This document shows positions 6,165 to 21,963 of a DNA stretch of 64,000 nucleotides, piece after piece. Below the pieces are notes generated by a model. It worked only from the letters and a program-made list of their open reading frames with translations, was not told where the DNA came from and did not search any database. The position numbers were made by a program, and so were the translations under genes. This DNA is from an uncultured bacterium (lineage in GTDB: Bacteria > Acidobacteriota > Aminicenantia > UBA2199), in contig CALODR010000009.1 of assembly GCA_942492175.1 (NCBI GenBank), forward strand, positions 353,850 through 417,849, in the 5' to 3' direction. Position 1 is the stretch's first letter. Each line of letters starts with the position of its first letter.

Positions 6165-6180
6165 GAAAGGGGAGATCAGA

Positions 6181-6834
6181 ATGAAAAAATCATTGCTTCT
6201 GCTGTTAATGTTGTTTTTGTTCTCGCTGCAAATCTATTCTCATTACCAGTGGATTGTATACCGGACTGAGATTACGGGGCAGGTAAGTAAAGGACATTTT
6301 ATGATAGGGTGTGGACACATGTTCCCGGAAAGTGAATTATTACTTAAAAGGGATATGATCAGTGGGGTTTTTTTGAGAAAGGGTGAAAATTCCATCCCTC
6401 TTAATATTAATGAAAATGGAAAATTCTGGGAAGGGTATGTGGAAAAAGATAATAATCTTCCTTATATCATTGAATACACTTTAACAAAAAGAATTTCAAA
6501 AAAACCGTTTTTTCTGGCCAGGGCTCTTGTTTCCCCTCCCGATTTTCAAAAAAGCACACTGAAAATTTTTACAGGGAAAGGGCTTGAAATAATTCCTGAA
6601 AATCTTCACATGACAAAAAAAACAGATCATCTTACTTTTAAAACTTATATTGACGGTAACCCTGTGCCTGCCAAACTGATCGTTTTTCCGGAGGGGAAAA
6701 AGCCTTTATATCTGTATCCGGACAGAAACTGTCAAAGCCGGGTTAAATTAAATTACAGCGGAATATATCTTGTCAGCACTTTCTACAAAGGTAAAGGTGG
6801 ATCGATCACTTTTTATGTGAGAGAGATAAAATAA
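6181..6834 (+). CDS. hypothetical secreted protein (possibly DUF4198-like)
   Basis: Signal peptide 'MKKSLLLLLMLFLFSLQIYS'; no confident domain. Confidence 0.35.
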   Translation: MKKSLLLLLMLFLFSLQIYSHYQWIVYRTEITGQVSKGHFMIGCGHMFPESELLLKRDMISGVFLRKGENSIPLNINENGKFWEGYVEKDNNLPYIIEYTLTKRISKKPFFLARALVSPPDFQKSTLKIFTGKGLEIIPENLHMTKKTDHLTFKTYIDGNPVPAKLIVFPEGKKPLYLYPDRNCQSRVKLNYSGIYLVSTFYKGKGGSITFYVREIK

Positions 6835-6864: not shown

Positions 6865-9168
6865 CTATTTTATAAGTTTAGGAAGGTTTATGTTCATTTT
6901 TTTAGGCATTCTGCTAAGATTGAAATCCACTCTTGTTTTGTTTGTCCCGGTTTTATAGTCCGAAAGTATAATTATTGTAAACGCATTGACCATAGTGGAT
7001 GTATTCATAGTGAAATTTACCAGGCCCCAAATGTTTTTGTTCTTCAGTGATCCGCTTTCTCTTCCCGCTTTGATCTCTGTATCATATTTGAACCCCATGC
7101 CCTTAAGTTCAGATATCAAATATTTGAATACTTCCAATTTCGGACTGTCATATTCCAGTAATGCATTACAGAGATTTGATTGTGGTGTACAATCATCACA
7201 TTTTATTACCCTTGGGTTTTTACCTTTTGGGATAATTGTTTTAAATGTTCCATTGAGCTCTCCTGATATGGCAGATGTGGTTTTGATAACATGAGGAGTT
7301 TCTGACAATAATCCTTTTCCACCGAGCAATTTAAAGAGGCTAAAATATTTTTTCTTTTTTGCTATATCTATGGCTGTATCTCCATTATTGTTCTTGGCGT
7401 TTTGTAAAGCCCCCATTTTTATCAATTTTTCCGCGAGTTGAGGCTGATCATATTCAATTGCTATCATAAGTGGTGTCCAGCCGAATTTATTGCCTAAATT
7501 TATATTAACGCCGGATTTTAATAAAATAGCTGCTATCTCAGGATGGTTATATCTGAGAGCAAGAAGCAGTGGAGTCCAGCCTTCAGCAGTCACATCGTCC
7601 AGGTTAAGTTTTTTCCTTTTTATTATTGATATTGCGGCTGCCGGCATATTGTATCTAACGGCCAGGTGGAGGGTTGACCATCCGTCCTTTGTGAATCCAT
7701 TAACGGTTGCACCTTTTTCTAACAGGAGTAATGCTGCATCAGGCTGATCATATCTTAAAGCTACCATAAGAGGGGTCCATCCATATCTTGTTACTTTGTC
7801 AAGCCCTTTGCCTTTCCTGATTATGATATCAGCAATTTCGGGGAACTTATATTCAAGTGCAAAATGGAGCGGAGTGTTCCCGTCTCTTTCAGTAGCGAGT
7901 GTATCAGCTCCGCTCTCAATGAGTTTCTTAGCACACTTTCCGGCACCGTTTCTCAATGCAAAAAGGAGCGGCGTCCATCCGTTTTTGTTGGAGGCGTTAA
8001 TGTCTTTATCTTTTTCTATCATCTTTTCGGCGAGTTTGTTTTTCCCATAACGGAGAGCATACATTAGGGGGGTCCAGTTCTCATTATCTTTGACATTTAT
8101 CTCAGCGCCCTTTCTATACAATGAATCAGCTAACTCCTCATTCCGGTAGCAGAGGGCCATCATCAGTGGTGTCCATTTATTATCTTTAGGTTTATTTATT
8201 TTACACCCTTTCTCAAGGAGCATATCCAATAATTCCATATCACAACCGTTCCGGAGGGCCATGAAGAGATTGTTCCATCCGCCGGAAATTTCTCCTGTAA
8301 CATCAATACCTTTATTTATTAAAAGTTTTGCCGGTTCTATCATATTATATCTTGTGGCAAACATCAGATGGTCCCATCCGCTTTTAGTTTTAATGGAGAT
8401 ATCGGGATCCATACTTATAAGAAATTTTGCAATCTCTTCATTTTTAAATTCCAGAGATGTCATCAATAATGTTTGACCGTTTTCCCATATTTTATTCAGG
8501 ATATCTCCTTTTTTTAGAAATTTTTCCAGAGATACCTTGTCTCCGTTTTCTACTGCTTTGAGTGCATTGTATTCGTTGCTGTATTGCCCCTTCGCAGAGG
8601 GTTGATATATGGGGATAAGAATTTTCCCTCTTGTTTTTTCGAGATAATCTCTCGGGCTGTTGCTGTTTATAAGACCTTTTAATACAGTATTGGAAGTGAA
8701 ATTAAGTTTTTTAAAATTTGTATCAATATGTATTTTATATGAATAATTTTCAAGACTTTCTTTAATAATAGTGATCTTGATATTGCCAAGATAGTTCAGG
8801 TCGGATTTGTTAACGTAGAATTTCTTGTCTATCTTATAATACTTTTTCCCGAAGAAGATATCTTCTATCTTGAACAGTCCGTCAACATTTTGTATCAGGA
8901 AATATTTCCCATTTCCGGCAGTGATCGTATCTGACTTCTTTTCCCCGTCTTTTCGTATTCTGATACTAATTTCCTCCCCCGGTCCGACAAGCTTTTTCTT
9001 CTTGAGAAAGGAGATACTTCCAAATGAGATAGAATTAAAATTTGAATTTTTAAATTTCCCGTTCTGTAATTCACTGACAAACGGGCCTTCATATTTTTTT
9101 ACTTCCGAGAATAGACCAATTGATAAAAATAGAGCAAAACATACAGAAATTGTTATTATTTTCTTCAA
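6865..9168 (-). CDS. secreted ankyrin-repeat protein (>=12 ANK repeats) with ~290-aa N-terminal domain of unknown function
   Basis: Repeated 33-aa units 'GWTPLMxALRYxxxxxAxxLLxKGAxxN'; N-terminal signal peptide 'MKKIITISVCFALFLSIGLFS'. Confidence 0.85.
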   Translation of the reverse strand: MKKIITISVCFALFLSIGLFSEVKKYEGPFVSELQNGKFKNSNFNSISFGSISFLKKKKLVGPGEEISIRIRKDGEKKSDTITAGNGKYFLIQNVDGLFKIEDIFFGKKYYKIDKKFYVNKSDLNYLGNIKITIIKESLENYSYKIHIDTNFKKLNFTSNTVLKGLINSNSPRDYLEKTRGKILIPIYQPSAKGQYSNEYNALKAVENGDKVSLEKFLKKGDILNKIWENGQTLLMTSLEFKNEEIAKFLISMDPDISIKTKSGWDHLMFATRYNMIEPAKLLINKGIDVTGEISGGWNNLFMALRNGCDMELLDMLLEKGCKINKPKDNKWTPLMMALCYRNEELADSLYRKGAEINVKDNENWTPLMYALRYGKNKLAEKMIEKDKDINASNKNGWTPLLFALRNGAGKCAKKLIESGADTLATERDGNTPLHFALEYKFPEIADIIIRKGKGLDKVTRYGWTPLMVALRYDQPDAALLLLEKGATVNGFTKDGWSTLHLAVRYNMPAAAISIIKRKKLNLDDVTAEGWTPLLLALRYNHPEIAAILLKSGVNINLGNKFGWTPLMIAIEYDQPQLAEKLIKMGALQNAKNNNGDTAIDIAKKKKYFSLFKLLGGKGLLSETPHVIKTTSAISGELNGTFKTIIPKGKNPRVIKCDDCTPQSNLCNALLEYDSPKLEVFKYLISELKGMGFKYDTEIKAGRESGSLKNKNIWGLVNFTMNTSTMVNAFTIIILSDYKTGTNKTRVDFNLSRMPKKMNINLPKLIK

Positions 9169-9354: not shown

Positions 9355-10530
9355 TTATTTCAGCAAAATCCCTTTCAGACCGACAATTACGGATGGTGAG
9401 GAAGTTTTAAGAACGCGAAAAACAACTTTCCCTTTCTCTCTTCCGGGTACGGAAGTTTCAAATTCTCTCTTCTCTCCTTTTTTAACATCTCTGAACAATA
9501 ACTGGTCGACCATATTGTCATTAACCAGTACCTGAAGAATGATGTAATCCGAGTTATCTTTATATTCGACCGTACCCTTGATCAGAAGCATTTCAGATCC
9601 TGAAAAGATCCCCTCTTTTCTGATGGGAATGTTTTTCCCGCCCAGCCCGGTTACCTTGTTAAGTGTTATCTCTGCTTTTGCAATTATTATTTTGATCTCA
9701 TTAATACTGCTCTCACCGGTTACTTTGTCGAAAGAATCAAAAGATCTGACTCTCCAGTAAGTCCACCTGTTTCTCTTAAGCCCGTCCCAGATCTCTTTTC
9801 CCGGGGTGAAAGTGAGGCCCCCTCTGACATCATTCCAGACAAGAGAAGAGCTGTTGTTTAGAAGATCAAAAAGTGAGTTGGAAAAAGCGATCTGGTATCT
9901 TGCCGCACCTCCTCTTGGGACTGCCCATGAGAATTCGGGTATCTCATCCTCTTTTGCTACAAATCCATCTGGGGGTGTTAAGGTCTCCATGCTCTTCTCA
10001 AATGGGAGCACGTAGTATCTCAGTGTCGGAAACACAAGTTCGGTAGCCGGCCTGGTAAGCCGGAACGAGACAGTGTGTAAACCCGGTTCAATAGTGGGAA
10101 GCGGGCTTGCCTTGTCCAGAGTAATTTCCTTAACTTCACCCTGGCTTGATAACTCATTTATAAGGCCGAATACCGATCCGTCATATAACCAGTGCCCTGT
10201 GATAACCCCGGTCCCCTTCATTTTTAATTTTAATACCGGTTTAAGCTGATCCGAATTTCTGGGGACGACCATATAATATTTCCCGTTATCGAACTTGAGC
10301 TCAGCCAGATCGAGAATAACCTTATCCGTCAGTCCGAAGACCTTAACCATGGTTTCGAATGATTTTGTACTTTCTCCGCCTTCATCAACAGCAATGATCT
10401 TAAAATCTCCTGTCTGAGTGTAAGTGTGAGATATGGTATGACCTCCGATTACAACTGTTCCGTCACCGAAGTTCCATAAAATGGTATCTCCATTAAAATT
10501 GTAAGCAGTAACGGTAACCGGTTCTCCTAT
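9355..10530. repeat. ~1.2 kb direct repeat copy 1 (3' part of PKD paralog A), near-identical to 11151-12326
   Basis: Encoded proteins are 100% identical over ~250 aa and >95% over the remainder. Shadow ORFs 9806-10015 and 11605-11814 encode identical 69-aa peptides. Confidence 0.85.
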
Positions 10531-11148
10531 ATTGACCTCGGCAGTCGAGATCTGTATGAACCTGTCGTCCGGTGAGACTGTTACTACTGTTGAAATGGTC
10601 TCGTGTTTGATGTCAAGTTCTCTTACATTTACAGTATAAGTCCCCGGTGTCTGATATCTGTGTGTCTGGATATGACCTCCGTTCAAAACAGAACCGTCAC
10701 CAAAGTTCCAATATATTGTGGGGTTAAGAAAATGAAGTGCCTGGAGATATACCAGCTGATCAACCTTGGGAGTTGAAGGTGTTGCCGTAACCGCTCTTCT
10801 CGGTGCAATAGTAATATTTTTTGTGACGTTATATGCAGTAAAAACAAATCCGCATGACGGGGTCCACATGGCAACACCATGGGTATACCTTATTGTATAT
10901 GTACCCGGTAGATCAAATGAGTGGCTCTGCCAGCCATGATCCAGATCATCCGGGTATATTATAGTTGTGCCGTCACCGAAATTCCAGGTGGATGTCCCTC
11001 TGGCCGAGTCATGACAACTCTTGTTGAAACCTATTTTGTCACCTACAAAATAAGGCCCGTTCCAGTTAACTACAATTTGTGCATTTAACGATTGCACTAA
11101 AACTAAAGAAAATAAACATATGAATGGTATCAGATATATCTTCTTCAT
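9355..11148 (-). CDS. secreted PKD-repeat protein, paralog A (3 PKD domains plus conserved C-terminal module)
   Basis: Signal peptide; repeated 'WNFGDGT' PKD signature; residues ~207-597 are near-identical to paralog B. Confidence 0.8.
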   Translation of the reverse strand: MKKIYLIPFICLFSLVLVQSLNAQIVVNWNGPYFVGDKIGFNKSCHDSARGTSTWNFGDGTTIIYPDDLDHGWQSHSFDLPGTYTIRYTHGVAMWTPSCGFVFTAYNVTKNITIAPRRAVTATPSTPKVDQLVYLQALHFLNPTIYWNFGDGSVLNGGHIQTHRYQTPGTYTVNVRELDIKHETISTVVTVSPDDRFIQISTAEVNIGEPVTVTAYNFNGDTILWNFGDGTVVIGGHTISHTYTQTGDFKIIAVDEGGESTKSFETMVKVFGLTDKVILDLAELKFDNGKYYMVVPRNSDQLKPVLKLKMKGTGVITGHWLYDGSVFGLINELSSQGEVKEITLDKASPLPTIEPGLHTVSFRLTRPATELVFPTLRYYVLPFEKSMETLTPPDGFVAKEDEIPEFSWAVPRGGAARYQIAFSNSLFDLLNNSSSLVWNDVRGGLTFTPGKEIWDGLKRNRWTYWRVRSFDSFDKVTGESSINEIKIIIAKAEITLNKVTGLGGKNIPIRKEGIFSGSEMLLIKGTVEYKDNSDYIILQVLVNDNMVDQLLFRDVKKGEKREFETSVPGREKGKVVFRVLKTSSPSVIVGLKGILLK

Positions 11149-11150
11149 TT

Positions 11151-12326
11151 TTATCTCCGTAGTATTAAACCCTTTATTCCTACTATAACTGAAGGTGAGG
11201 AGGTTTTAAGAACGCGAAAAACAACTTTCCCTTTCTCTCTTCCGGGTACGGAAGTTTCAAATTCCCTCTTCTCTCCTTTTTTAACATCTCTGAACAATAA
11301 CTGGTCGACCATATTGTCATTAACCAGTACCTGAAGAATGATGTAATCCGAGTTATCTTTATATTCGACCGTACCATTGACCAGGAGTATTTCGGATCCT
11401 GAAAAGATACCCTCTTTTCTAATCGGGATATTTTTCCCCTCCAGTCCGGTCACCTTGTTAATCGTTATCTCTGCTTTTGCAATGATGATCTTGATCTCAT
11501 TGATACCGCTCTCACCTGTTACTTTGTCGAAAGAATCAAAAGATCTGACTCTCCAGTAAGTCCACCTGTTTCTCTTAAGCCCGTCCCATATCGCTTTTCC
11601 GGGGGTGAAAGTGAGTCCCCCTCTGACATCATTCCAGACAAGAGAAGAGCTGTTGTTTAGGAGATCAAAAAGTGAGTTGGAAAAAGCGATCTGGTATCTT
11701 GCCGCACCTCCTCTTGGGACTGCCCATGAGAATTCGGGTATCTCATCCTCTTTTGCTACAAATCCATCTGGGGGTGTTAAGGTCTCCATGCTCTTCTCAA
11801 ATGGGAGCACGTAGTATCTCAGTGTCGGAAACACAAGTTCGGTAGCCGGCCTGGTAAGCCGGAACGAGACAGTGTGTAAACCCGGTTCAATAGTGGGAAG
11901 CGGGCTTGCCTTGTCCAGAGTAATTTCCTTAACTTCACCCTGGCTTGATAACTCATTTATAAGGCCGAATACCGATCCGTCATATAACCAGTGCCCTGTG
12001 ATAACCCCGGTCCCCTTCATTTTTAATTTTAATACCGGTTTAAGCTGATCCGAATTTCTGGGGACGACCATATAATATTTCCCGTTATCGAACTTGAGCT
12101 CAGCCAGATCGAGAATAACCTTATCCGTCAGTCCGAAGACCTTAACCATGGTTTCGAATGATTTTGTACTTTCTCCGCCTTCATCAACAGCAATGATCTT
12201 AAAATCTCCTGTCTGAGTGTAAGTGTGAGATATGGTATGACCTCCGATTACAACTGTTCCATCACCGAAGTTCCATAAAATGGTATCTCCATTAAAATTG
12301 AAAGCGGTGACTGTAACCGGGGCTCC
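11151..12326. repeat. ~1.2 kb direct repeat copy 2 (3' part of PKD paralog B)
   Basis: See copy 1. Confidence 0.85.
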
Positions 12327-12962
12327 GATCGGTGTCTCTGATGTTGAAATTTGAATGAACCTGTCATCGGGAGATATAGTTACTGTTGCGTATATGGTCT
12401 CATGTTTTACATCCAGTTCTCTTGCCGTAATTGTGTACACTCCGGTTGACTGATACCTGTGGGTTTGAGTAAGACTTCCATTAAGTACAGTTCCGTCCCC
12501 GAAGTCCCAATAAACTGTGGTTCCCGTAAAATTCAGGGCCTGGATGTAGACAAGCTGATCAACCTTCGCGTTGGAGGGATAAGCTGTGACAGCCCTTTTT
12601 GGGTCAATAGTAATTCTGTATATAACGGTAAATGCATTTCCTGACCAGCTTCCATCATGACATATGGGAGTTGAAGAGGCAACACCATGGGTATACCTCA
12701 CTACATATGTCCCCGGTAGTGAATATGAGTGATACTGCCAGCCGTGATCATTGTCATCCAGATATGTGTAGGATGTACCGTCACCGAAATCCCAGGTGGA
12801 TGTTCCCCTGCTGGAATCATGACAGATTTTATTGAATCCGATTGTATCACCAACGTAATAGGGATCACTTTTATTAACTACAATTCCGGTTGGGAAAGAC
12901 TGAGCTTGAATTGAAACAGTAGTAAATATAGCAACTAATATTAATAAGTATGTCTTTTTCAT
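11151..12962 (-). CDS. secreted PKD-repeat protein, paralog B (tandem duplicate of A)
   Basis: Signal peptide; 'WDFGDGT/WNFGDGT' PKD motifs. The stop lies 2 nt from the start of paralog A. Confidence 0.8.
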   Translation of the reverse strand: MKKTYLLILVAIFTTVSIQAQSFPTGIVVNKSDPYYVGDTIGFNKICHDSSRGTSTWDFGDGTSYTYLDDNDHGWQYHSYSLPGTYVVRYTHGVASSTPICHDGSWSGNAFTVIYRITIDPKRAVTAYPSNAKVDQLVYIQALNFTGTTVYWDFGDGTVLNGSLTQTHRYQSTGVYTITARELDVKHETIYATVTISPDDRFIQISTSETPIGAPVTVTAFNFNGDTILWNFGDGTVVIGGHTISHTYTQTGDFKIIAVDEGGESTKSFETMVKVFGLTDKVILDLAELKFDNGKYYMVVPRNSDQLKPVLKLKMKGTGVITGHWLYDGSVFGLINELSSQGEVKEITLDKASPLPTIEPGLHTVSFRLTRPATELVFPTLRYYVLPFEKSMETLTPPDGFVAKEDEIPEFSWAVPRGGAARYQIAFSNSLFDLLNNSSSLVWNDVRGGLTFTPGKAIWDGLKRNRWTYWRVRSFDSFDKVTGESGINEIKIIIAKAEITINKVTGLEGKNIPIRKEGIFSGSEILLVNGTVEYKDNSDYIILQVLVNDNMVDQLLFRDVKKGEKREFETSVPGREKGKVVFRVLKTSSPSVIVGIKGLILRR

Positions 12963-13003: not shown

Positions 13004-14908
13004 TTAGAAAGCTATGTCTGCTTTCAGGTAAACTGAAGTGGAATCATTCGTCATTCCACTATTCTCATCTTTTTTATATGTCCCTTTCAAAGAGATTGAT
13101 GGTGTGATCTTATTTTTGAATAGTTTAGCCATGAAAAAATTAAGGCTGACGTCTGCAGAGAAGGTTTTTGAATCCGAATAAACGCTTTCACTGCTGTAAT
13201 ATGATGAAAAAATGGAAAGTGTGAAGATGTCGGGGATGAACTTAAGTTCTGAACTCAGGGTAGCATTAAGCATTTTTGATGTGGTGTCATCCTGATTGTC
13301 GGTCTTTGTATATGATGCAGACGGGGAAAGGGTAAGAAATTTTCCGATCGAAAATGACATTGAAAGGTTTGCATTCAGGTTGGAAGTGAAATTTTCAGAT
13401 TCGATCTTTCCGATTCCGAGTGATATAGAGTTGCTTCCCGAATAGTACCTGAGGTTAGTACCATAAGAGTTAGTGTTCATAGCGGTACCAGAGCTCTGGA
13501 GGCCTGAAGACTCATCATAGTTCAGATTGTTCCTTCCTAAATTTGCACTGAGGCTGAAATGATTTCCAATTGTCCAGTTAATATCGGTCTTAATCTCTTT
13601 TGTCCTTTCCGTGTTCCATTCTGTACTATTCAGATAGTTTTTTTCATCCCGGTAATTGACATTCCAGGTTATTTTTGTCAGGTTCAGCCCAATTGCGGTG
13701 TTAAGCCCTTCTCTATCGTTCAGCATCATCTGGTTTGCAATAGAGTAATAATTCGTACCTATTTTTTTATAATTTCCGTTTGCAGAGATCTTTCCCTTGT
13801 AAAAATTAAATCCGGCCTGCCAGGCACTGTCTTTTTCTTTTGATATATCATCACTGGTCTCACCTTTGCCGAAATTACTCTGTGCATATTCACCTTTCAG
13901 CGTAAGTGCACTTTTCATGAGTTTAAGTTCACCCCAGATCGAAATAATGTCACCTTCCCTGACAGGATCATCATTCGAATATAAGGTTTTACTATCGGTC
14001 TTATCTTTACCTGTTATGAATGAGGTTTTTATTGAAAATATCTGCCCTGATTTAAATCCTGTCGCTGCACCGAAAAGGTTTGCATCAGGTATCGGTATCC
14101 CGAATCCCTCAAAACCTGTTTTTTGCTGAGAGTTTACTGAAAACAGGTTGAAGTACAATTTATTTCCGGTCATTTCATAGTTTAACCCTCTTCTACTGAG
14201 CCATGAAGTTGAAAAATCTGAATGATTTATCGAAACATCACCAGCTTCAAATTTATGATTGCCTTTTTTGAACCTGACAATCATATTGGAAAGATTTATG
14301 TGGCTTTCATCAGGCCCGATCTGATCCAGGTAATTAAATGTGGATTCAAAATCGAACTGATATTCGTTGTCATAAATATTCCTGTATAATCTTATATTCC
14401 CGTTGTTTGAAAATGCTTTGCCCGGATAATCAGAATTGTCATGCAGTTTGGTGGTTGAAGAGTATGAGGGGCTTACTTTTAAAAAGGGATTCTTTGCTTT
14501 GGGCGTTGCTCCCCCTGATTCTGTATTTAAAAAATAGATCTCAGGTGATTCTTTCTTTGTAAAATTTGTGATAGTGAAGACCGGTGATAGGGGATTTTCC
14601 TTTCTTCTGTCTTTTTCAAAGATAAAGTATTCAATGTTTTTCCCGTAGAGGTTCTCAAGAGGCAATCTGTAGTAGATCTCCCCGTTTGCACTGACCTCCA
14701 TTTTCCTTACCTGATAATGATTCAGTCCCTCAGTTTTGTAGTAAATATAAAAATCATCTCCCCGGCTGAGTGTTGAAACTTTAATAGTTATTGCTTTTTC
14801 ACCCTTCTCAATTATCGGGAGGTAGTTGGAAAAGCCAAAGGATTTGCTTTGAACCGTCAAACTTAATAATAAAATCAGGATTAAAACACAGATAGGTTTT
14901 ATTCTCAT
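13004..14908 (-). CDS. outer-membrane beta-barrel protein (634 aa), family unknown
   Basis: Signal peptide 'MRIKPICVLILILLLSLTVQS'; long Ser/Thr/Asn/Gly/Tyr-rich amphipathic strands; C-terminal '...YLKADIAF' terminal Phe. Confidence 0.55.
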   Translation of the reverse strand: MRIKPICVLILILLLSLTVQSKSFGFSNYLPIIEKGEKAITIKVSTLSRGDDFYIYYKTEGLNHYQVRKMEVSANGEIYYRLPLENLYGKNIEYFIFEKDRRKENPLSPVFTITNFTKKESPEIYFLNTESGGATPKAKNPFLKVSPSYSSTTKLHDNSDYPGKAFSNNGNIRLYRNIYDNEYQFDFESTFNYLDQIGPDESHINLSNMIVRFKKGNHKFEAGDVSINHSDFSTSWLSRRGLNYEMTGNKLYFNLFSVNSQQKTGFEGFGIPIPDANLFGAATGFKSGQIFSIKTSFITGKDKTDSKTLYSNDDPVREGDIISIWGELKLMKSALTLKGEYAQSNFGKGETSDDISKEKDSAWQAGFNFYKGKISANGNYKKIGTNYYSIANQMMLNDREGLNTAIGLNLTKITWNVNYRDEKNYLNSTEWNTERTKEIKTDINWTIGNHFSLSANLGRNNLNYDESSGLQSSGTAMNTNSYGTNLRYYSGSNSISLGIGKIESENFTSNLNANLSMSFSIGKFLTLSPSASYTKTDNQDDTTSKMLNATLSSELKFIPDIFTLSIFSSYYSSESVYSDSKTFSADVSLNFFMAKLFKNKITPSISLKGTYKKDENSGMTNDSTSVYLKADIAF

Positions 14909-14984: not shown

Positions 14985-17807
14985 TTACAGGATCTTAAAG
15001 AACAAGATATCAGAAACAGTTGATACGGATCCGGTTGCGTCAACTATTCTTACCTGCCAGTATATCCAGTCTCCAGATTTGTATTTTGCAGTTTCAAGGT
15101 CAAAAGATGTGTCTTCCCCTGTCTCTATCCAATTTATGCTATTGTCACTCTGGAGTTGGAATGGGATTTCGGATACGGCAATTTCGAACCTGTCCCCCTG
15201 CCTTTTCTTTTTCCATTTTAGTTTTATTATATCTTTACGTGTCAATTTTGATCCGGATAAAGGGGATATTGTTTTTATGGACCCGCTGTTGGTCACAAAA
15301 TATCTTAAAGTAGGGATCTTGCCCTCAAAATTATAATTTTCAAAATCTAAACTTAATGAATGAATTCCTGTTTCGAGTACAGGAAGTTTCGGGACTTCGC
15401 TGGCTTTTATGGTAATAAGGTTTCTTCCTGCCAGTAGTTTTGTGAATAAACCAAAAACCTTCCCGTCAAAAAGCCATTTACCGGTGATAATTCCTTTCCC
15501 GTTTATTTTCAGCTTTAACTGATAACCGGGGGAAAAGCTGTTAAGCGGAACGATCCTGTAGTATTTTCCATTGCTGAAAGTGAGCTCCAGAGCATTTATT
15601 CTGAAATCCTCCGTCTGCTCCCTGACCTTTACAGTTTTTGTGAACAATTTTTTTCCTTGGCCTTCATAGTCAACAGCTGTGATCTTATATGTACCTGTTT
15701 TGTTGAAAGTCTGTGTAATGGTTTTGGAGAGGATTTTGGGCGGGCTGCCGTCTCCCACATCCCATTTGACTGCATTACCATTAAAATTTTGTGCAGTCAG
15801 TTTAAGCGGTTCACCGATGAGGACGGTCTCTTCCCCGAGAATAAGTGATCTTGTGTCAGGTTGAACATTTATTGTTTTTACAACCGGCGGATAAAGTCCG
15901 GACCTGTCAGTTAAAATAATTTGTTTTACTCCGGGAGTGTTAAAGACTATTTCGCCCGGATTTTGTCCGGATACGGTTTTCCCCCCCTGAAATTTCCACT
16001 CATAATTCCCGCCTTGTGAGTTTTTCAACTGCATTGAAAACGGAACTCCGGCAATAATAGTTTTTCCTAATTCCAGCACACGGGAATCCCTGACAACATT
16101 TATGCTGAGTTCTATTTCCCTGGATCCTTTCCCGTCAAAATCTATAGCGGTTATTCTATAATTTCCGGGCATTTTATATTTATGAGTAATTCTTTTTGAG
16201 CCTCTCTGGTCCGAGCCGTCTCCAAAGATCCATCTTACTCTGTTGTCAGCGAAATTTCTTGCTTCAAATTCTGTTTCCGTGTCTGCGATAATAGTTCCCT
16301 TGCGGGATACTATTTCCCTGTTATCCCTTAAAACATTTATCCTCACCTTCACAGGAATTTTTGAAGTGCCGTCAAAATCAAATACCTGAACAACAAAATT
16401 TCCCGGTCTCATATACGTATAATTTATTTGATGCGAGCCATTCCTGATTGTTCCGTCTCCCATATCCCATTTAACTGAAGGAGAATTCAAATTGCGTCCT
16501 ATAATTTTTAATTCAGTTTTTTCAAAAATTTGACTATTTTCAACTTTGAGTTCTCTGTTATCGTTTATTGTAATAAATTCTCTTACGGGCGACTGCCCCT
16601 GTATATCAGCAATAACCTCAACTCTTCCAGGATCCTTGAATTTATGCTGGATCTCCAGTGGGGAATTGTTTGCGGGGTTTTCGTTTCCTATCTTCCAGGT
16701 TACAGTATTTGCAGAACTATTCTGAAGCTTAATCATTACCTGCTGCCCGACAAGTGCTGCCGGCGGCTGAATCAGGACCTTTCTTTTATCCTGATTTACA
16801 GATACCATCACCGTTACAAATGGAGAAGATGATCCGGCTTCCCTTGCTTTAATATTGAAGTTTCCCATGTTTGTAAAAGTGTGTTTTTCTGTCTGTCCGC
16901 CGGTTTTTTTATTGTTTTGGCCGAAATCCCACTCAATTGATCCTGAAGTAAAATTGACTGCATTAAATGTAACTTCTTCATAAAGTGAGGGGTTTTGCGG
17001 AGATATATTTATAGATCTGTTGTCAGGTGAAACGTTTACGGTTTCTTCAATAAAGCTGTTCGGACCTATTGCCATGTCTGTTACCCTGACCTTAAAGTTA
17101 CCCTGAGATGAAAATATATGAGTCATTGATTGTCCGCCGTTCTGTATTGCTCCGTCCCCGAAATCCCATTTAAGGTTTGCGGAAAAATTTACCGCCTGGA
17201 AAGCTATTTCCCTCCCTGCCATCGGAGATGAGGGTTGATAATTTACAGAACGGTTATCTGGTGCTATTGATATTGTGCAGGTTATAACTGAAGATGAATT
17301 TCCAGCGTAATCTTTTACTTTTATTGTATAATTACCTGGATTTGAATAAGTATGCTCCCTGCTCTGCTGACCGTTATTTACTGTTCCGTCTCCGAAATCC
17401 CAGTTCAGAGTATTTTCAACAAAATAATTTGTGTTAAATAAAACAGGATTTCCGGCCATAAAAGAGCTACCACTAGGTTCAACAGTTCTCCTTTCTGTAA
17501 CATTAATTATTGATGTCAACAGAGTCGGTTGGCCGCCTGCAGGGGTTTTTTCACAAGTTACTTCATAATTTCCCGGTTCTTTATAAATATGGTTTGCTTG
17601 AGATTGGGCCCCCTCAACAGGTGGAGTTCCGTCCCCGAAATTCCATTTGTAGTTAAATTGAGATGAAGGAGGTCCCCCTCCCTGAATTCCAAAAGTCACC
17701 TGTGTACCCGGGAACACCTGGTTAGGTTGGTTGTGGATGTTCTCACTATTTAATTGGTTGAATAAAAGCAGGAATACTAACGATACAAAAATGAGGTTTT
17801 TTTTCAT
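14985..17807 (-). CDS. large secreted PKD-repeat protein C (~8 PKD domains plus the C-terminal module shared with A and B)
   Basis: Many 'WDFGDGT/WNFGDG' motifs. The start is probably the internal ATG at 17807 (MKKNLIFVSLVFLLLF) preceded by GGAG, not 17858. C-terminal ~210 aa are homologous to A/B ('LTFSNGKYYRIVP' vs 'LKFDNGKYYMVVP'; 'GKWLFDGKVFGL' vs 'GHWLYDGSVFGL'; 'PTLRYFV' vs 'PTLRYYV'). Confidence 0.8.
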   Translation of the reverse strand: MKKNLIFVSLVFLLLFNQLNSENIHNQPNQVFPGTQVTFGIQGGGPPSSQFNYKWNFGDGTPPVEGAQSQANHIYKEPGNYEVTCEKTPAGGQPTLLTSIINVTERRTVEPSGSSFMAGNPVLFNTNYFVENTLNWDFGDGTVNNGQQSREHTYSNPGNYTIKVKDYAGNSSSVITCTISIAPDNRSVNYQPSSPMAGREIAFQAVNFSANLKWDFGDGAIQNGGQSMTHIFSSQGNFKVRVTDMAIGPNSFIEETVNVSPDNRSINISPQNPSLYEEVTFNAVNFTSGSIEWDFGQNNKKTGGQTEKHTFTNMGNFNIKAREAGSSSPFVTVMVSVNQDKRKVLIQPPAALVGQQVMIKLQNSSANTVTWKIGNENPANNSPLEIQHKFKDPGRVEVIADIQGQSPVREFITINDNRELKVENSQIFEKTELKIIGRNLNSPSVKWDMGDGTIRNGSHQINYTYMRPGNFVVQVFDFDGTSKIPVKVRINVLRDNREIVSRKGTIIADTETEFEARNFADNRVRWIFGDGSDQRGSKRITHKYKMPGNYRITAIDFDGKGSREIELSINVVRDSRVLELGKTIIAGVPFSMQLKNSQGGNYEWKFQGGKTVSGQNPGEIVFNTPGVKQIILTDRSGLYPPVVKTINVQPDTRSLILGEETVLIGEPLKLTAQNFNGNAVKWDVGDGSPPKILSKTITQTFNKTGTYKITAVDYEGQGKKLFTKTVKVREQTEDFRINALELTFSNGKYYRIVPLNSFSPGYQLKLKINGKGIITGKWLFDGKVFGLFTKLLAGRNLITIKASEVPKLPVLETGIHSLSLDFENYNFEGKIPTLRYFVTNSGSIKTISPLSGSKLTRKDIIKLKWKKKRQGDRFEIAVSEIPFQLQSDNSINWIETGEDTSFDLETAKYKSGDWIYWQVRIVDATGSVSTVSDILFFKIL

Positions 17808-17854
17808 TGTAAAATTCTCCTTAAAGTTTATATAAGAAAATTGTTGAATATATC

Positions 17855-20641
17855 TCATTTTTTTATAAAAAACTTATAAAGGTTAAAATTTGCCCATATC
17901 ATGGGATGAGAAAATGACAACTTTCTTCCGTTTCCCAGTTCAATGATTCTTTTTCTGAAAGATATTTTAACATTCCTTAATATAGTAGCGAGGTCATCCG
18001 CCCGCCCTTTTTCATTCTTGAGCTCTGTATAGAAAGGGACAATGATTTCTGAACTAAACTCATTGACAGGCCATAAACTCGCTATCATCGATTCTGCTCC
18101 GGAATTATAAAGTGTTGCTGTAATACCGCTTATCAACTGTTCCCCCATGAGATGATTTTCCAGGCTTCCGCAGGTGCTTAAAAAGATCAGGTCGCAATTC
18201 AATCTCAGTCTGGAAATATCGGAAACAAAATATAATGGATCGTTTTCCTTCCGGGCGGAGAACAGAAACATTGAATACCATGGGTATTTCCTGTTACTAA
18301 CAAAATGTGTTGCCAGATGAATTATTCTTGAAACTGTTGCAGTTTTATTGAAATTTTCCTTTGTGAATTCTTTCCCGGTATAAAATCTCCCCCTCTTATC
18401 TCCCCAGATATTTTTTATTTTTCTGATCTCTTCCTTTGATGAAGGGAGTAGGGTGAAAATAGAGTTACCCTTTTCAGAAAAATCAGAAAGCCATTTGTTC
18501 TTAGGGTCTATTACGGGAAATCCGAAGGCACTTATATCATATTTTTTCCTTCCTTTTTTTTTGTTATTTTTAAGGTGGAAAATGGAGAACAGGTATTCGA
18601 TGGAATATCTGTCAATAAGGAATTGAGTGTTCTCATATTCAGAAAAGATCACATTTTTTATTCTATAACTTCTCTTTTTTTTTGTTATTAAAGCCTCAAA
18701 CGGGATCTTGAAAAGGGCATCGTCAGGAATAATTATGAGCTTTTCCTTATCTTTATGAAACTCCAGAACATCATGAAGAAGGATATTATACAATTCAGCT
18801 GATTTCTCCTGGTCATATTTGATCCGCAGGAAGTCCACTTCGTTATTTTCATATCTTTGAATTGGGGATAATAGGGATCCTATAAGATTTTTTATATATT
18901 TGCTCCCCTTTTCTAGTTTTTTATATCCGGCGGATTTGTGATCGATAACAAAAGCATACGTATTATCTTCGAGCACGATGAACCTAACCACAAGAGTATC
19001 CCTGTCAAGTATATTCCTGATTTTTGTCAGATCCAGTTCAGAGATCAGAAATCTTTTGTATCTTTTCGGGAACTCAAGAATAAGGTCTTCAAGCTCTATA
19101 AGTTCTGTTTTCAGTGAATCTACCATTTTTTTATAAGATATGATCCTGGATTCTTTAATATGTCCTTTTAAAATTTTCTCTTCAGCTGCCCTGACCTCAT
19201 TTTCGACTCTGGTTTTTTCTTTTTCTATACTTTGTATGCGGCGGTCCCCGTCAGATATTCTCCTGAACATATAAGGATTCTTAACCTCTCCTGAGTAAAA
19301 AGCCATTCTGAGATATTTCAGTTCATTTGTCTTATCAAACATTCTGAAGTTAAACCTTGCTATCCTTGAATAAATGAAGGTGATCTCCTCCCTGTATGGA
19401 TAATGTCTGAGGTGATTCAATTCAGAAAAAAAATAGTTAAGGCTCCTGAATGTTTTTTCATAATATTCACCTGCAACTTCCGGTTTCCCGATTTTTTCAT
19501 TCAGCATACCTCTGAGAAAATAGTAGAAAAAATATCCGCGGTAGAACGGAGTGTAAATCTTACTCATTTTATTCAGATAAGCCATCGCCTCTTCCGGGTT
19601 GTTATAATGAATAGCCCTTTTTATAAACTCGTAGAGAACCGGCATAAGGTGTTCGTAAGATTCATTGTTGATGCCGAAATCCGCAGTGTTCTTCAGAATA
19701 GTTAGTCCGCTGATATCCTGATCATTATAAAAAAATAATTTAGATCTCATAAAATAGGCATTTAGAATAAGTTCCGGGAAATTTTTTTTCTCTCCAATTG
19801 CGATGCTTCTTCTGTTGTATTGTTCAGCTTTGTTGTAATTCGCTTCAGACATGAAAACTTCTGTATAGATATTAAATATCCACATTTTCAGATGTTCATT
19901 CCTGAATTTTTCAGCATAATTCAGTGATCTTCCGAGAAATTTAAGAGCAAGCTTGTTTTTCCCCAGATGGAAAAAAGCTTTTGCTATCCTGTTATAAATA
20001 TACCCGCTGCTTGAAGCTTCCATTTTTTCTGAATATTTTATCGCTTCAAAAAAAAACTGCAGTGATCTCAGAAAATTGTTTTCATGAAGGTGATAATCTC
20101 CGAGGGTAATAAATAATTGCTTCAGTGAGTCATTGTCTTTATATTTCTTTCTTAATTCTGCCTGGTTCTCAAGATATAATATCTCCCTTTTGATGTCACC
20201 GTTTCTCCTGTGAAATTCATGCAGTTTTATAAGTGATTCGAGTCTATCCCTGTCATTTCCGGAGTTTGCCAGTGCTTTCTTTAGATAATTCTCATTGTTT
20301 TTATCTGATATTTTTGCCAATTGAAGGTATATATAGTAATAAACTTTTTTGAATTTTTTTTTTCTCAAAATCTTTTTAAAAAAATCAGATGTTTTCTGAA
20401 CGTTTTTCAATATTTTTGAATTCCGGCCTACCATAAGGAGTTTGTGTTTTAAAATTTCGACACTTTGATCAGGTTCGAATTCTGAGATTTCAACCATAAG
20501 TTTCTCCTGATCTACTTCTGTAAATTTTTTTGTACTTAATTGTGCAGGACAAATTAAAATCAAGGAAAACATGAAGAAGAGGAGAGGGGGAATATATCTC
20601 ATTTCATATAAAAGTTTAATTAATAAGAAAAAAAAATTCAA
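17855..20641 (-). CDS. secreted TPR-repeat / CHAT-domain (clan CD, caspase-like) peptidase
   Basis: N-terminal hydrophobic signal, TPR-like helical repeats (residues ~100-420), coiled coil, C-terminal CHAT with the His ('IIHLATHF') and Cys ('IFLSTCGSLE') dyad regions. Confidence 0.8.
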   Translation of the reverse strand: MNFFFLLIKLLYEMRYIPPLLFFMFSLILICPAQLSTKKFTEVDQEKLMVEISEFEPDQSVEILKHKLLMVGRNSKILKNVQKTSDFFKKILRKKKFKKVYYYIYLQLAKISDKNNENYLKKALANSGNDRDRLESLIKLHEFHRRNGDIKREILYLENQAELRKKYKDNDSLKQLFITLGDYHLHENNFLRSLQFFFEAIKYSEKMEASSSGYIYNRIAKAFFHLGKNKLALKFLGRSLNYAEKFRNEHLKMWIFNIYTEVFMSEANYNKAEQYNRRSIAIGEKKNFPELILNAYFMRSKLFFYNDQDISGLTILKNTADFGINNESYEHLMPVLYEFIKRAIHYNNPEEAMAYLNKMSKIYTPFYRGYFFYYFLRGMLNEKIGKPEVAGEYYEKTFRSLNYFFSELNHLRHYPYREEITFIYSRIARFNFRMFDKTNELKYLRMAFYSGEVKNPYMFRRISDGDRRIQSIEKEKTRVENEVRAAEEKILKGHIKESRIISYKKMVDSLKTELIELEDLILEFPKRYKRFLISELDLTKIRNILDRDTLVVRFIVLEDNTYAFVIDHKSAGYKKLEKGSKYIKNLIGSLLSPIQRYENNEVDFLRIKYDQEKSAELYNILLHDVLEFHKDKEKLIIIPDDALFKIPFEALITKKKRSYRIKNVIFSEYENTQFLIDRYSIEYLFSIFHLKNNKKKGRKKYDISAFGFPVIDPKNKWLSDFSEKGNSIFTLLPSSKEEIRKIKNIWGDKRGRFYTGKEFTKENFNKTATVSRIIHLATHFVSNRKYPWYSMFLFSARKENDPLYFVSDISRLRLNCDLIFLSTCGSLENHLMGEQLISGITATLYNSGAESMIASLWPVNEFSSEIIVPFYTELKNEKGRADDLATILRNVKISFRKRIIELGNGRKLSFSHPMIWANFNLYKFFIKK

Positions 20642-20701: not shown

Positions 20702-21262
20702 ATGAAAGAGAGCCATACAATTATCAATCTACTCAAGTCAAATGACTTGCCAGCCGAAACCATGCTTGTCAAAAAATTTAATTCAAGACTATTTACATAC
20801 TTCCGCTCCAGGATAAAAGGTGAGGATAATTATGAGGATCTTGTCCAGGAGGTATTTGTATCGTTTTTTAATGCTGTCAAAAAAGATAAAATACACAGCG
20901 ATGATTTTATCGCTCCTTTTATATTCGGTATTGCCAAAAGAGTTGTATACAATTACTTTTATAAGAAAAAAAAAGGAGAAAATATAAAAAAGAAAGCGGA
21001 AAATGAACACAATCCCTTTGTTGATTTTTCCGGAGAGCAGAACCTTTGGAATGAGAGGATGATCAATATCATAAATGAACATATAAAAAATTTGAAAGAT
21101 ATTGACAGGGTAATCCTGAAAGAATTTTTTTTTAACGATAACACAATCAGCGAAATATCCGTATTAACAAACAGGTCGAAGCATTATGTTAGTGTGAGAA
21201 AAGAAAGAGCAATAAAAAAAATAAAAAGTGAGATATTGAATGCAGAAGGTGTATTTAAGTAA
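20702..21262 (+). CDS. ECF-type RNA polymerase sigma factor (sigma-70 family regions 2 and 4)
   Basis: 'DLVQEVFVSFF' region 2.x-like and C-terminal HTH 'ISEISVLTNRSKHYVSVRKERAIKKIK'; 186 aa. Confidence 0.8.
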   Translation: MKESHTIINLLKSNDLPAETMLVKKFNSRLFTYFRSRIKGEDNYEDLVQEVFVSFFNAVKKDKIHSDDFIAPFIFGIAKRVVYNYFYKKKKGENIKKKAENEHNPFVDFSGEQNLWNERMINIINEHIKNLKDIDRVILKEFFFNDNTISEISVLTNRSKHYVSVRKERAIKKIKSEILNAEGVFK

Positions 21263-21273
21263 TAGAGGAAAAG

Positions 21274-21963
21274 ATGAAGTGCAAAGAATTTGAGTCTCTC
21301 ATAGGAAATTATCTTGAAGGGACAATAGAGGACAATAAAAGGGAAATATTTGAAGAGCATTATTTTGTTTGCGATGAATGTTATGCTTCATTGGTTTTAA
21401 TTGAGAACCTTCGTGAAAAAAATGTTAGGATAGTACCGGGAAAGCAAAGAAATTACTCGTTCACCTTCAGGCCGGCACTATTCTTCGCTTCATTGATCCT
21501 GGTAGTATTTACATCTCTCTTTGTTACAGATTTTAACAACAGAAAAGAAAAATTATTGGATATCTCGGATTTTTCTGCCCCCCTTTACGTGAAAGGAGAG
21601 AACAGAGGTGATGATTTTTCGGATATGTTCCATGAAGCTATGGATAATTATCAGAATAGTAACTATAAAAAAGCTTATATCATAATAGCATCTATAGAAA
21701 ACGGGAATCCGAAGACATGGTTTTTCAGGGGAATTCTTGCATTGCTTAACGGAAAAAATAAGGATGCACTCATACATTTTGATAAAATAATAGTTGAAAT
21801 GTCTCCATCTTACTATGACGAAGCCATATACTATCGGGGGATCTGCTACTTGAGACTGAACCGGAAACATGATGCAGTAAAGCAATTTAAAATGCTTGAG
21901 TCTATGTTCAGCCCTCTCCGTCAGAAAGCTGCTGAAATGGTAAAAAGAATCTTAAGCGTCTGA
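21274..21963 (+). CDS. anti-sigma factor (zf-HC2 type) with single TM and C-terminal TPR-like domain
   Basis: N-terminal 'CKEF...EEHYFVCDECY' putative zinc finger; TM 'PALFFASLILVVFTSLFV'; starts 12 nt downstream of the ECF sigma gene. Confidence 0.65.
   Translation: MKCKEFESLIGNYLEGTIEDNKREIFEEHYFVCDECYASLVLIENLREKNVRIVPGKQRNYSFTFRPALFFASLILVVFTSLFVTDFNNRKEKLLDISDFSAPLYVKGENRGDDFSDMFHEAMDNYQNSNYKKAYIIIASIENGNPKTWFFRGILALLNGKNKDALIHFDKIIVEMSPSYYDEAIYYRGICYLRLNRKHDAVKQFKMLESMFSPLRQKAAEMVKRILSV

What the first reader, a model, noticed from the sequence alone, without database searches (positions are those of the whole stretch)
14985..15650. Uncharacterised C-terminal module shared by all three PKD proteins; A and B carry an extra ~110-aa tail that C lacks
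After the last PKD domain each protein has a homologous segment: 'LxFxNGKYYxxVPxNS...KLKxxGxGxITGxWLxDGxVFGL...PTLRYxV...' followed by an Ig/Fn3-like 'YW(R/Q)VR' stretch. Protein C stops right after this ('...ILFFKIL'). A and B continue with 'IAKAEITLNKVTGLGGKNIPIRKEG...VFRVLKTSSPSVIVGLKGILLK'. A family-specific C-terminal module on otherwise unrelated PKD arrays is how sorting domains (T9SS CTD, PEP-CTERM, LPXTG) typically present. The optional extra tail suggests two anchoring or processing states.
Basis: seen in the sequence. Interest (0 to 1): 0.65.

Follow-up and report, generated by a model that had tools for sequence, protein, structure and literature searches.

The report
Ig-like docking domains beside novel barrel
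The shared C-terminal region of the three PKD proteins is real, but it is a string of two or three small immunoglobulin-like domains, not a sorting signal, and its first domain almost always sits next to a gene for a previously undescribed large outer-membrane barrel, which points to a new way of attaching surface proteins in uncultured bacteria.

Summary
Proteins A (9355-11148), B (11151-12962) and C (14985-17858), all on the minus strand, share a homologous region of about 215 aa after their PKD arrays (BLASTP E=2e-32). A and B add a tail of 109-110 aa.

The region is not a sorting signal. AlphaFold2 (pLDDT 85) shows three separate beta-sandwich domains:
- M1 has no Pfam or PDB sequence match.
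- M2 is a divergent Fn3-like Ig_Rha78A_N domain (PF25788).
- M3, the tail, has no match.

None has a C-terminal TM helix, an LPXTG or PEP motif, or a T9SS-CTD match. A profile search of 1.84 billion proteins found 944 relatives. M1 and M2 also occur at N-termini of giant proteins, in mid-protein, as stand-alone secreted proteins and, for M2, as tandem arrays.

The main result is genomic. M1-bearing genes lie beside gene X (13004-14908), an unannotated family predicted to form a 26-strand outer-membrane barrel; its best fold match is MtrB, followed by the FimD/PapC ushers. This held in 23/23 Aminicenantes loci and 6/7 distant loci. The C-type gene sits upstream of X and the tail-bearing type downstream, often after a CHAT protease gene. 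Tail and no tail are therefore two fixed paralogue lineages, not processing states.

My inference is that M1 docks Ig-repeat proteins to the X barrel.

The parts
14985..17858 (-). Protein C (957 aa as ORF; the likely true start is M18 'MKKNLIF', about 17807): signal peptide, PKD array, M1, M2, no tail
15282..15620 (-). C, domain M1 (aa 747-859): unannotated beta-sandwich; the domain that co-occurs with the X barrel
   Evidence: E=1e-41 to the M1 profile; no Pfam or PDB match
14988..15284 (-). C, domain M2 (aa 859-957): divergent Fn3-like Ig_Rha78A_N-type domain carrying the 'YWQVR' motif
   Evidence: (PF25788, E=0.0086)
13004..14908 (-). Protein X (634 aa): signal peptide, N-terminal beta-sandwich (aa 32-114), disordered linker, predicted 26-strand outer-membrane beta-barrel ending in Phe; unannotated family
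   Evidence: no family; 142 homologues of about 635 aa, none with a Pfam domain; AF2, pLDDT 75.5; best match MtrB 6r2q_B, then FimD/PapC
11151..12962 (-). Protein B (603 aa): signal peptide, 3 PKD domains, M1 (11796-12134), M2 (11484-11795), M3 tail (11157-11483)
9355..11148 (-). Protein A (597 aa): signal peptide, 3 PKD domains, M1 (9997-10335), M2 (9685-9996), M3 tail (9358-9684)
9358..9684 (-). A, domain M3 (the 'extra tail', aa 489-597): seven-strand beta-sandwich with the conserved motifs DQLLFRDVKKGE.R.FETS and VLK(T/S)SSPSV; found only in the genes downstream of X
17855..20641 (-). TPR-CHAT (caspase-like protease) protein with a hydrophobic N-terminus; first gene of the cassette
   Evidence: conserved upstream of the C-type gene in L004, L005, L008, L011, L024 and L035
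20702..21963 (+). ECF sigma factor (20702-21262) and zf-HC2/TPR anti-sigma factor (21274-21963), transcribed divergently from the cassette
   Evidence: the same pair lies beside CHAT in L035 (63% and 40% identity)
6865..9168 (-). Secreted ankyrin-repeat protein downstream of A; possibly the last gene of the cassette
   Evidence: conserved downstream of the A-type gene in L005

Best explanation
The shared region is not a signal peptide-like tag. It is a chain of independent Ig-like beta-sandwich domains that follows the PKD array: M1 and M2 in protein C, and M1, M2 and M3 in A and B.

M1 is a previously unannotated domain whose genes are almost always adjacent to gene X. X is a previously unannotated outer-membrane protein predicted to form a 26-strand barrel with an N-terminal beta-sandwich.

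Proposed mechanism (inferred):
- The proteins are exported by Sec, since all have type-I signal peptides.
- M1 docks to X, either in the wide barrel lumen or on its N-terminal domain.
- This tethers the variable PKD/Ig array to the outer membrane, probably threaded to or displayed at the cell surface.
- M2 is an Fn3-like spacer.
- M3 is an extra, highly conserved domain specific to the partner encoded downstream of X.
- The exported CHAT protease encoded at the head of the cassette may process or release the tethered proteins, and an ECF sigma/anti-sigma pair may regulate the cassette.

Shown: homology, domain structure, architectures and synteny. Inferred: physical docking, topology and the protease role.
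For: Homology is secure: C vs A E=2e-32.

The AF2 model has three discrete beta-sandwiches, mean pLDDT 85.4.

The profile search found 944 relatives. In the 150 best, the architectures were:
- M1-M2 at the C-terminus: 50 clusters
- M1-M2-M3: 16
- M1-M3: 25, of which 10 have further C-terminal sequence
- M1 followed by long C-terminal regions: 18
- M1-M2 with further C-terminal sequence: 5 (right after the signal peptide in P0108, P0117 and P0142); P0159 (1371 aa) and P0167 (4643 aa) likewise begin with M1

Stand-alone forms exist: signal peptide + M1-M2 or M1-M2-M3 proteins, and M1-only lipoproteins. The function is therefore independent of position.

Synteny:
- An X homologue lies directly upstream of the tail-bearing gene in all of L001-L024, which are 23 distinct loci, nearly all Aminicenantes MAGs.
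- The C-type gene lies directly upstream of X in 8 of these.
- In distant lineages with different architectures, X is again adjacent: L025, L026, L030, L031, L032 and L033/L034.
- Starting instead from an X homologue (L035), the order is CHAT, C-type, X, sulfatase, A-type.

X is predicted as a signal peptide, a beta-sandwich and 26 strands, ending in Phe. Its best PDB fold match is MtrB, followed by the FimD/PapC ushers. MtrB is a 26-strand barrel that sheathes a partner protein (PMC7198977).

The C-terminal modules are constant while the PKD region varies from 0 to about 600 aa among orthologues, as expected for a conserved anchor with a variable distal part.
Against: - No direct evidence of an M1-X contact. 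No complex prediction could be run.
- One C-type gene (P0059, L028/L029) has no X within 8 kb.
- 15 of the 23 Aminicenantes loci lack a C-type gene in the flank.
- Topology is unknown: which side of the membrane the PKD array faces was not established.
- The X model is of moderate confidence (pLDDT 75.5, pTM 0.56), and the strand count comes from DSSP on that model.
- A sulfatase gene inside or near the cassette fits a nutrient-uptake role equally well.
- Fold comparison of M1 and M3 as single domains could not be done.
Confidence: 0.6

Rival explanations
1. Cleavable C-terminal sorting domain: the module is recognised by a dedicated export or anchoring machine and is removed or covalently attached, as with the T9SS CTD, PEP-CTERM or LPXTG.
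For: In 50 + 16 of the 150 best clusters, M1-M2(-M3) lies within 15 residues of the C-terminus. M3 is a beta-sandwich of about 110 aa, similar in size and fold class to T9SS CTDs. A protease gene (CHAT) is in the cassette.
Against: - No match to the Por_Secre_tail, type-B CTD, PEP-CTERM or LPXTG models, even at permissive thresholds.
- No TM helix or motif.
- M1 and M2 also occur at the N-terminus or inside proteins.
- Stand-alone module proteins have no cargo.
- The 'cargo' is only Ig-type arrays.
- There is one tail-bearing locus per genome in the 22 genomes matched.
- The host lineage is Aminicenantes. To my knowledge T9SS is confined to Bacteroidota and relatives.
Confidence: 0.07
2. Substrate-capture accessory of an uptake channel. 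X is a large porin or transporter for a polymer-derived nutrient, and the PKD-M1-M2(-M3) proteins bind the substrate. This would work like SusE/F or SusD around SusC. M1 or M3 could be the binding head as well as, or instead of, the tether.
For: - PKD and Ig_Rha78A_N-type domains are common in glycoside hydrolases and other polymer-degrading enzymes (one search hits include the GH85_C, GH39_C and SusE families).
- A sulfatase gene lies between X and the A-type gene in L035, and a sulfatase-TPR gene lies 3.3 kb beyond the CHAT gene in the window (23945-26377).
- M1 has invariant or nearly invariant His, Trp and Asp residues that could form a binding site.
Against: - No enzyme or TonB-type plug domain is part of the conserved core.
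- The proteins lack lipoboxes, so surface exposure would still need X or another exporter.
- Distant versions attach M1-M2 to adhesin-sized proteins: P0167 is 4643 aa and the L033 gene product 4550 aa. That fits display better than uptake.
Confidence: 0.2
3. Passive spacers. M1-M3 are just more Ig-like stalk domains with no specific partner, and the adjacency to X reflects an inherited operon.
For: All three are generic beta-sandwiches. The Foldseek hits are generic Fn3, Ig and MG arrays. M2 forms tandem arrays of up to about 18 copies in other proteins.
Against: The M1-X adjacency survives complete reshuffling of architecture: C-terminal, N-terminal, M1-only lipoprotein, and PKD or He_PIG partners. 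M1 and M3 are more strongly conserved than the PKD part.
Confidence: 0.1

Closest known systems
MtrAB(C) porin-cytochrome complex (PDB 6r2q; PMC7198977)
   Same: The X model's best PDB fold match is MtrB (Foldseek E=1.7e-8, TMq 0.48). Both are 26-strand barrels encoded beside their partner proteins. MtrB sheathes one partner and another partner docks on its surface, which parallels the two M1 proteins that flank X.
   Different: There is no sequence similarity. The partners are Ig-like, not multihaem cytochromes, and A, B and C have no CxxCH motif. X has an extra N-terminal beta-sandwich.
Chaperone-usher pathway (FimD/PapC ushers)
   Same: The ushers are the second-best fold matches of X. They are large barrels with an N-terminal periplasmic domain that handle Ig-fold subunits exported by Sec.
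   Different: There is no Pfam usher match and no chaperone gene. No plug or C-terminal domains are predicted. The model has 26 strands, not 24. The partners are complete multi-domain proteins, not strand-deficient pilins.
LapA retention module / LapE pore / LapG protease (bioRxiv 10.1101/198937)
   Same: Functional analogy only. In that system a conserved terminal module lodges a repeat-rich adhesin in an outer-membrane pore, and a periplasmic cysteine protease releases it. Here a conserved module, a barrel and an exported caspase-like CHAT protease are encoded together. Distant versions put M1-M2 at the N-terminus of proteins of more than 4500 aa.
   Different: There are no T1SS genes. The proteins have Sec signal peptides. 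X is a beta-barrel, not a TolC-like pore. CHAT is unrelated to LapG. Nothing here is experimentally tested.
LptD/LptE plug-and-barrel
   Same: From my own knowledge, LptD is a 26-strand barrel occupied by the small lipoprotein LptE. The distant X loci encode a 160-175-aa M1-only lipoprotein right after X.
   Different: There is no LptD/OstA family match, and LptD is not among the 50 Foldseek matches listed. The window's M1 proteins are not lipoproteins.
T9SS C-terminal domain (Por_Secre_tail)
   Same: M3 is a C-terminal beta-sandwich of about 110 aa on a secreted repeat protein.
   Different: There is no sequence match. M3 occurs at one locus per genome in the 22 genomes matched. It is linked to gene X rather than to T9SS genes. 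The host is Aminicenantes.
Pfam PF25788 Ig_Rha78A_N (Fn3-like domain at the N-terminus of GH78 rhamnosidases)
   Same: M2 relatives in tandem arrays match it at E=3e-76. Of 19 M2 sequences from this family, 10 match it, and no other family was matched by more than one. The rhamnosidase 6i60 appears in both the sequence and the fold searches.
   Different: The window's own copies score below the gathering threshold: C 16.8 bits and A 13.5 bits against a cut-off of 27.4.

Membership tests
T9SS C-terminal sorting domain (type A TIGR04183/PF18962; type B TIGR04131) | Sequence match to the CTD models | tested here: not met
   No hit for A, B or C at E<=0.01 in Pfam or NCBIfam. No hit for 20 M3 or 19 M2 family members at E<=1.
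T9SS C-terminal sorting domain (type A TIGR04183/PF18962; type B TIGR04131) | Strictly C-terminal, attached to many different cargo proteins per genome | tested here: not met
   M1 and M2 also occur at N-termini and mid-protein. 10 of 25 M1-M3 clusters have C-terminal extensions. Partners are only PKD or He_PIG arrays. There is one tail-bearing locus in each of 22 genomes.
T9SS C-terminal sorting domain (type A TIGR04183/PF18962; type B TIGR04131) | Host encodes T9SS machinery (PorU/V, Sov/SprA and others) | not testable with these tools
   Only a 64-kb window is available. Relatives are Aminicenantes MAGs.
PEP-CTERM / LPXTG / other sortase-type signals | Short motif followed by a hydrophobic TM helix and a basic tail at the extreme C-terminus | tested here: not met
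   There is no LPxTG or PEP in the last 60 aa. Maximum 19-aa Kyte-Doolittle hydropathy is 1.0-1.2 and the longest uncharged run is 9-10 aa. The terminal residues are a beta-strand of a folded domain.
Pfam PF25788 Ig_Rha78A_N (for M2) | Score above the gathering threshold (27.4 bits) | tested here: inconclusive
   C scores 16.8 bits and A 13.5 bits, both below threshold. However, 10 of 19 family members match (best E=1.8e-6), and tandem-array relatives found by the M2 profile match at E=3e-76. M2 is a divergent relative.
PKD domain (PF00801/PF18911) for the N-terminal arrays | Score above the gathering threshold | tested here: met
   A 67 bits, B 69 bits, C 199-206 bits.
MtrB/PioB-type porin of porin-cytochrome complexes (for X) | 26-strand barrel fold | tested here: met
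   DSSP on the AF2 model gives 26 strands between aa 144 and 633. The top Foldseek hit is 6r2q_B. This rests on a prediction of moderate confidence.
MtrB/PioB-type porin of porin-cytochrome complexes (for X) | Sequence homology and an adjacent multihaem cytochrome partner | tested here: not met
   No Pfam, NCBIfam or PDB sequence match. No CxxCH in A, B, C, X or CHAT.
Fimbrial usher (PF00577) (for X) | Sequence match; cognate chaperone gene | tested here: not met
   No Pfam hit. No chaperone-like gene in the cassette. There is only fold-level resemblance.
Anti-phage defence systems containing CHAT or ankyrin proteins | Match to PADLOC models | tested here: not met
   No hit for CHAT, X, A or C. 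Only generic ankyrin-repeat hits for the Ank protein.

The most novel reading that the evidence does not exclude
X and the M1 domain define a previously undescribed outer-membrane display or secretion system. A dedicated 26-strand barrel would receive Sec-exported Ig-repeat proteins and giant adhesins through a position-independent docking domain (M1) and hold them at the cell surface. A second M1 protein or M1 lipoprotein would act as plug or co-receptor, and an exported CHAT caspase-like protease would act as the release switch under ECF-sigma control. The system would be present in Aminicenantes and in other lineages known only from metagenomes.
Probability: 0.3. Interest if true: 0.8.

Novelty: new variant of a known kind. 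Interest (0 to 1): 0.55.

Why it matters
Aminicenantes are abundant, uncultured subsurface bacteria, and nothing is known about their cell surface.

If M1 really docks proteins to X, three unannotated families (X, M1, M3) become a defined system for attaching Ig-repeat proteins and giant adhesins to the outer membrane. It would have no homology to the known secretion types or sorting signals.

It would also give a concrete extracytoplasmic role to a bacterial CHAT protease.

At the least, M1, M3 and X merit new family definitions. Together they annotate roughly a thousand 'hypothetical' or 'PKD domain-containing' metagenomic proteins: 944 clusters for the module profile and 142 for X.

The hypothesis can be tested directly by complex prediction and by heterologous co-expression.

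Tried and rejected
- **Pfam and NCBIfam scans of A, B, C and X.** They found nothing beyond PKD for the modules and nothing for X.
- **PADLOC scan.** No hit for the core proteins.
- **Profile searches of M1, M3 and X against PDB sequences.** Only chance-level hits.
- **Profile-profile comparison of M1 with M3, and of X with M1.** No relationship detected.
- **Foldseek of the three-domain model against PDB.** Only generic Fn3, Ig and MG arrays; it cannot resolve single domains.
- **Word-index search with the M1 profile.** Only 7 hits.
- **Cluster look-up for names and taxa.** No names returned.
- **Exact look-up of the window's own X protein.** No contig returned.
- **Promoter and terminator scan.** Counts were at chance level.
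- **Literature searches for Aminicenantes plus PKD or outer membrane.** Zero papers.

Ideas considered and rejected:
- A porin-cytochrome system: there are no haem motifs.
- A defence island: there is no PADLOC hit and all products are exported.
- C being a truncated A-type gene: 50 independent clusters end exactly after M2, and only 76 nt follow C's stop.
Full report
**1. The observation**

Six co-directional minus-strand ORFs lie between 6.8 and 20.6 kb:
- a TPR-CHAT protein (17855-20641)
- C (14985-17858, 957 aa)
- X (13004-14908, 634 aa)
- B (11151-12962, 603 aa)
- A (9355-11148, 597 aa)
- an ankyrin-repeat protein (6865-9168)

A, B and C have signal peptides and PKD arrays. C stops there, and only 76 nt remain before X. 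A and B carry a further 109-110 aa. No other ORF in the window carries these modules.

**2. Anatomy of the module**

An AlphaFold2 model of the 326-aa post-PKD region of A, built on a 17-sequence alignment, has mean pLDDT 85.4. It resolves three separate all-beta domains:
- M1, residues about 5-112
- M2, about 114-217
- M3, about 219-326

The final residues ('SVIVGLKGILLK') form the last strand of M3, not a membrane helix. Hydropathy, charge distribution and motif checks exclude a TM-anchored sorting signal.

M2 is a divergent Fn3-like domain of the Ig_Rha78A_N type (PF25788).
- C hits it at E=0.0086.
- 10 of 19 M2 sequences from the family hit it, and no other family was matched by more than one.
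- Proteins found through the M2 part of the profile as tandem arrays match it strongly, for example 10 M2 copies in P0046 at E=3e-76.

M1 and M3 have no significant match in Pfam, NCBIfam or PDB sequences, even with profiles. They are unrelated to each other and to X at the profile level. Foldseek of the whole model returns only generic Fn3, Ig and macroglobulin-domain arrays.

**3. Distribution and architectures**

A word-indexed search found only 26 close homologues. All were metagenomic, and one was labelled Aminicenantes. A full HMMER profile search of 1.84 billion cluster representatives found 944 proteins at E<=1e-3.

I dissected the best 150 with separate M1, M2 and M3 HMMs:

| Architecture | Clusters |
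|---|---|
| M1-M2 at the C-terminus (C-type) | 50 |
| M1-M2-M3 (A-type) | 16 |
| M1-M3 without M2 | 25 (10 with 168-659 further residues) |
| M1 followed by long C-terminal regions | 18 |
| M1-M2 with further C-terminal sequence | 5 |
| Tandem M2 arrays | 20 |

In three of the five clusters in the fifth row (P0108, P0117, P0142), M1-M2 comes right after the signal peptide. P0159 (1371 aa) and P0167 (4643 aa), counted under M1 by the strict HMM, likewise begin with M1.

Stand-alone forms also exist:
- signal peptide + M1-M2 proteins (P0054, P0057 and others)
- signal peptide + M1-M2-M3 proteins (P0015, P0018, P0041)
- 160-175-aa M1-only proteins with lipoboxes

Where an N-terminal extension exists, it is a PKD or He_PIG Ig-type array. 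Among A-type orthologues its length varies from about 0 to 600 aa while the C-terminal modules stay constant.

These features do not fit a C-terminal sorting tag. Such a tag should be strictly terminal, attached to diverse cargo, and never found alone.

**4. Genomic context: the main result**

A scan of GTDB species-representative genomes found 22 A-type loci, one per genome. Most records are labelled Candidatus Aminicenantes; the others carry generic or other labels.

- In all 24 fetched loci, which are 23 distinct because L002 and L022 are the same contig, an X homologue (41-85% identity) lies immediately upstream of the A-type gene.
- In 8 loci a C-type gene lies immediately upstream of X.
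- In 5 loci a CHAT gene lies upstream of that.
- Starting independently from an X homologue (L035), the order is ECF sigma/anti-sigma (divergent), CHAT, C-type, X, sulfatase, A-type.
- The window has the same sigma/anti-sigma pair at 20702-21963.

The link between M1 and X holds in distant lineages with different architectures:
- L026: X, then PKD-M1-M3
- L030: X, then PKD-M1-M3 with an extension
- L032: X, then He_PIG-M1-M2
- L025: signal peptide + M1-M2, then X
- L031 and L033/L034: X, then an M1-only lipoprotein, then a protein with N-terminal M1-M2. That protein is 832 aa in L031 (P0108) and 4550 aa in L033; only 495 aa of it fall on the short L034 contig.

One determinable exception is P0059 (L028/L029), which has no X within 8 kb.

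So M1 is the constant partner of X. M3 occurs only in genes downstream of X. 'Tail' versus 'no tail' marks two paralogue lineages at fixed positions, not two processing states.

**5. What X is**

X has 142 word-index homologues of about 635 aa. None has a Pfam domain and all are 'hypothetical'.

The AF2 model (34 sequences, pLDDT 75.5) shows a signal peptide, a beta-sandwich (aa 32-114), a disordered linker, and 26 transmembrane-length strands up to a C-terminal Phe.

Foldseek against PDB ranks MtrB first (6r2q_B, E=1.7e-8, TMq 0.48). The FimD/PapC ushers and the Deinococcus SlpA barrels follow. MtrB is a 26-strand barrel that sheathes a partner protein while another docks outside (PMC7198977). 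Ushers pass Ig-fold subunits.

There is no sequence homology to any of these. The partners have no haem motifs.

**6. Mechanism**

Shown:
- homology of the modules
- their three-domain Ig-like structure (predicted)
- positional independence of M1 and M2
- strict synteny of M1-bearing genes with X

Inferred: after Sec export, M1 docks on or in the X barrel and tethers the variable Ig array to the outer membrane. M2 acts as a spacer. M3 adds a second, highly conserved contact in the downstream partner, through its near-invariant DQLLFRDVKK...FETS and SSPSV motifs. CHAT, which has a hydrophobic N-terminus, may cleave or release the tethered proteins. That would be analogous in logic to the LapA retention module, LapE and LapG (bioRxiv 10.1101/198937).

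My confidence in this overall picture is about 0.6. It is higher, about 0.9, for 'not a canonical sorting signal'.

Rivals:
- A SusC/D/E/F-like substrate-capture assembly. Sulfatase genes near or in the cassette support this. Confidence about 0.2.
- Passive spacer domains. About 0.1.
- A cleaved sorting tag. About 0.07.

**7. Comparison with known systems, and novelty**

The proteins are members of none of the families they resemble; see the membership table. The logic, a large barrel plus a dedicated partner protein, is known from MtrAB, LptDE, the ushers and LapAE. I therefore class this as a new variant of a known kind, built from three unannotated families. Literature searches found nothing on it.

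**8. Limits**

- No complex prediction or single-domain fold search was possible.
- Only one window of the genome is available.
- Topology and the protease role are untested.

Noticed in passing
window 9355-12962 (genes A and B): A and B are tandem paralogues with a mosaic identity pattern. The first ~660 nt are ~50-80% identical per 60-nt block. Nt 661-1300 (third PKD domain, M1, start of M2) are identical apart from one mismatch. After that come patches of 83-92% identity. This looks like a recent gene-conversion tract or partial duplication. None of the related loci fetched shows a second A-type gene.
   Followed up: partly
window 20702-21262 (+) and 21274-21963 (+): An ECF-type sigma factor and a zf-HC2/TPR anti-sigma factor are transcribed divergently from the CHAT gene. 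The same pair (63% and 40% identity) sits beside the CHAT gene in L035, so the cassette may be under ECF control.
   Followed up: partly
window 23945-26377 (-); L035 11953-14115: The window has a sulfatase fused to a long TPR region 3.3 kb beyond the CHAT gene. In L035 a sulfatase gene is inserted between X and the A-type gene. This may hint at sulfated polymers as the biological context.
   Followed up: no
window 6865-9168 (-): A 767-aa ankyrin-repeat protein with an N-terminal signal or TM segment lies directly downstream of A. It is conserved in the same position in L005 (67% identity). An exported ankyrin protein is unusual in bacteria.
   Followed up: no
L033 2513-2995; L031 1640-2167; P0310, P0311: The small M1-only proteins (160-175 aa) encoded right after distant X homologues have lipoprotein signal peptides (LTGC, LCGC, ASSC, AAAC). 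This recalls the LptE lipoprotein that plugs the 26-strand LptD barrel.
   Followed up: partly
window 17807-17858: The ORF of C begins at an ATG that overlaps the CHAT stop codon. The signal peptide, however, starts at Met18 (MKKNLIFVSLVFLLLF), so the true start is probably near 17807.
   Followed up: no
window 5403-6834 (+); L035 16206-17632: A 253-aa protein with no Pfam family and a DUF4198 protein lie next to the cassette in the window. A gene pair of the same sizes and Pfam content (253 aa with no family, 213 aa DUF4198) lies next to the cassette in L035; I did not compare the sequences. The arginine deiminase gene beyond the sigma pair (22675-23937) is also shared. Synteny seems to extend beyond the cassette.
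   Followed up: no
P0071, P0072 (metagenome proteins): Two hits carry M3 directly after an unrelated N-terminal region or directly after PKD domains, with no M1. They may be assembly or frameshift chimeras rather than real architectures. L001 and L002 also show frameshifted X or A-type genes.
   Followed up: no
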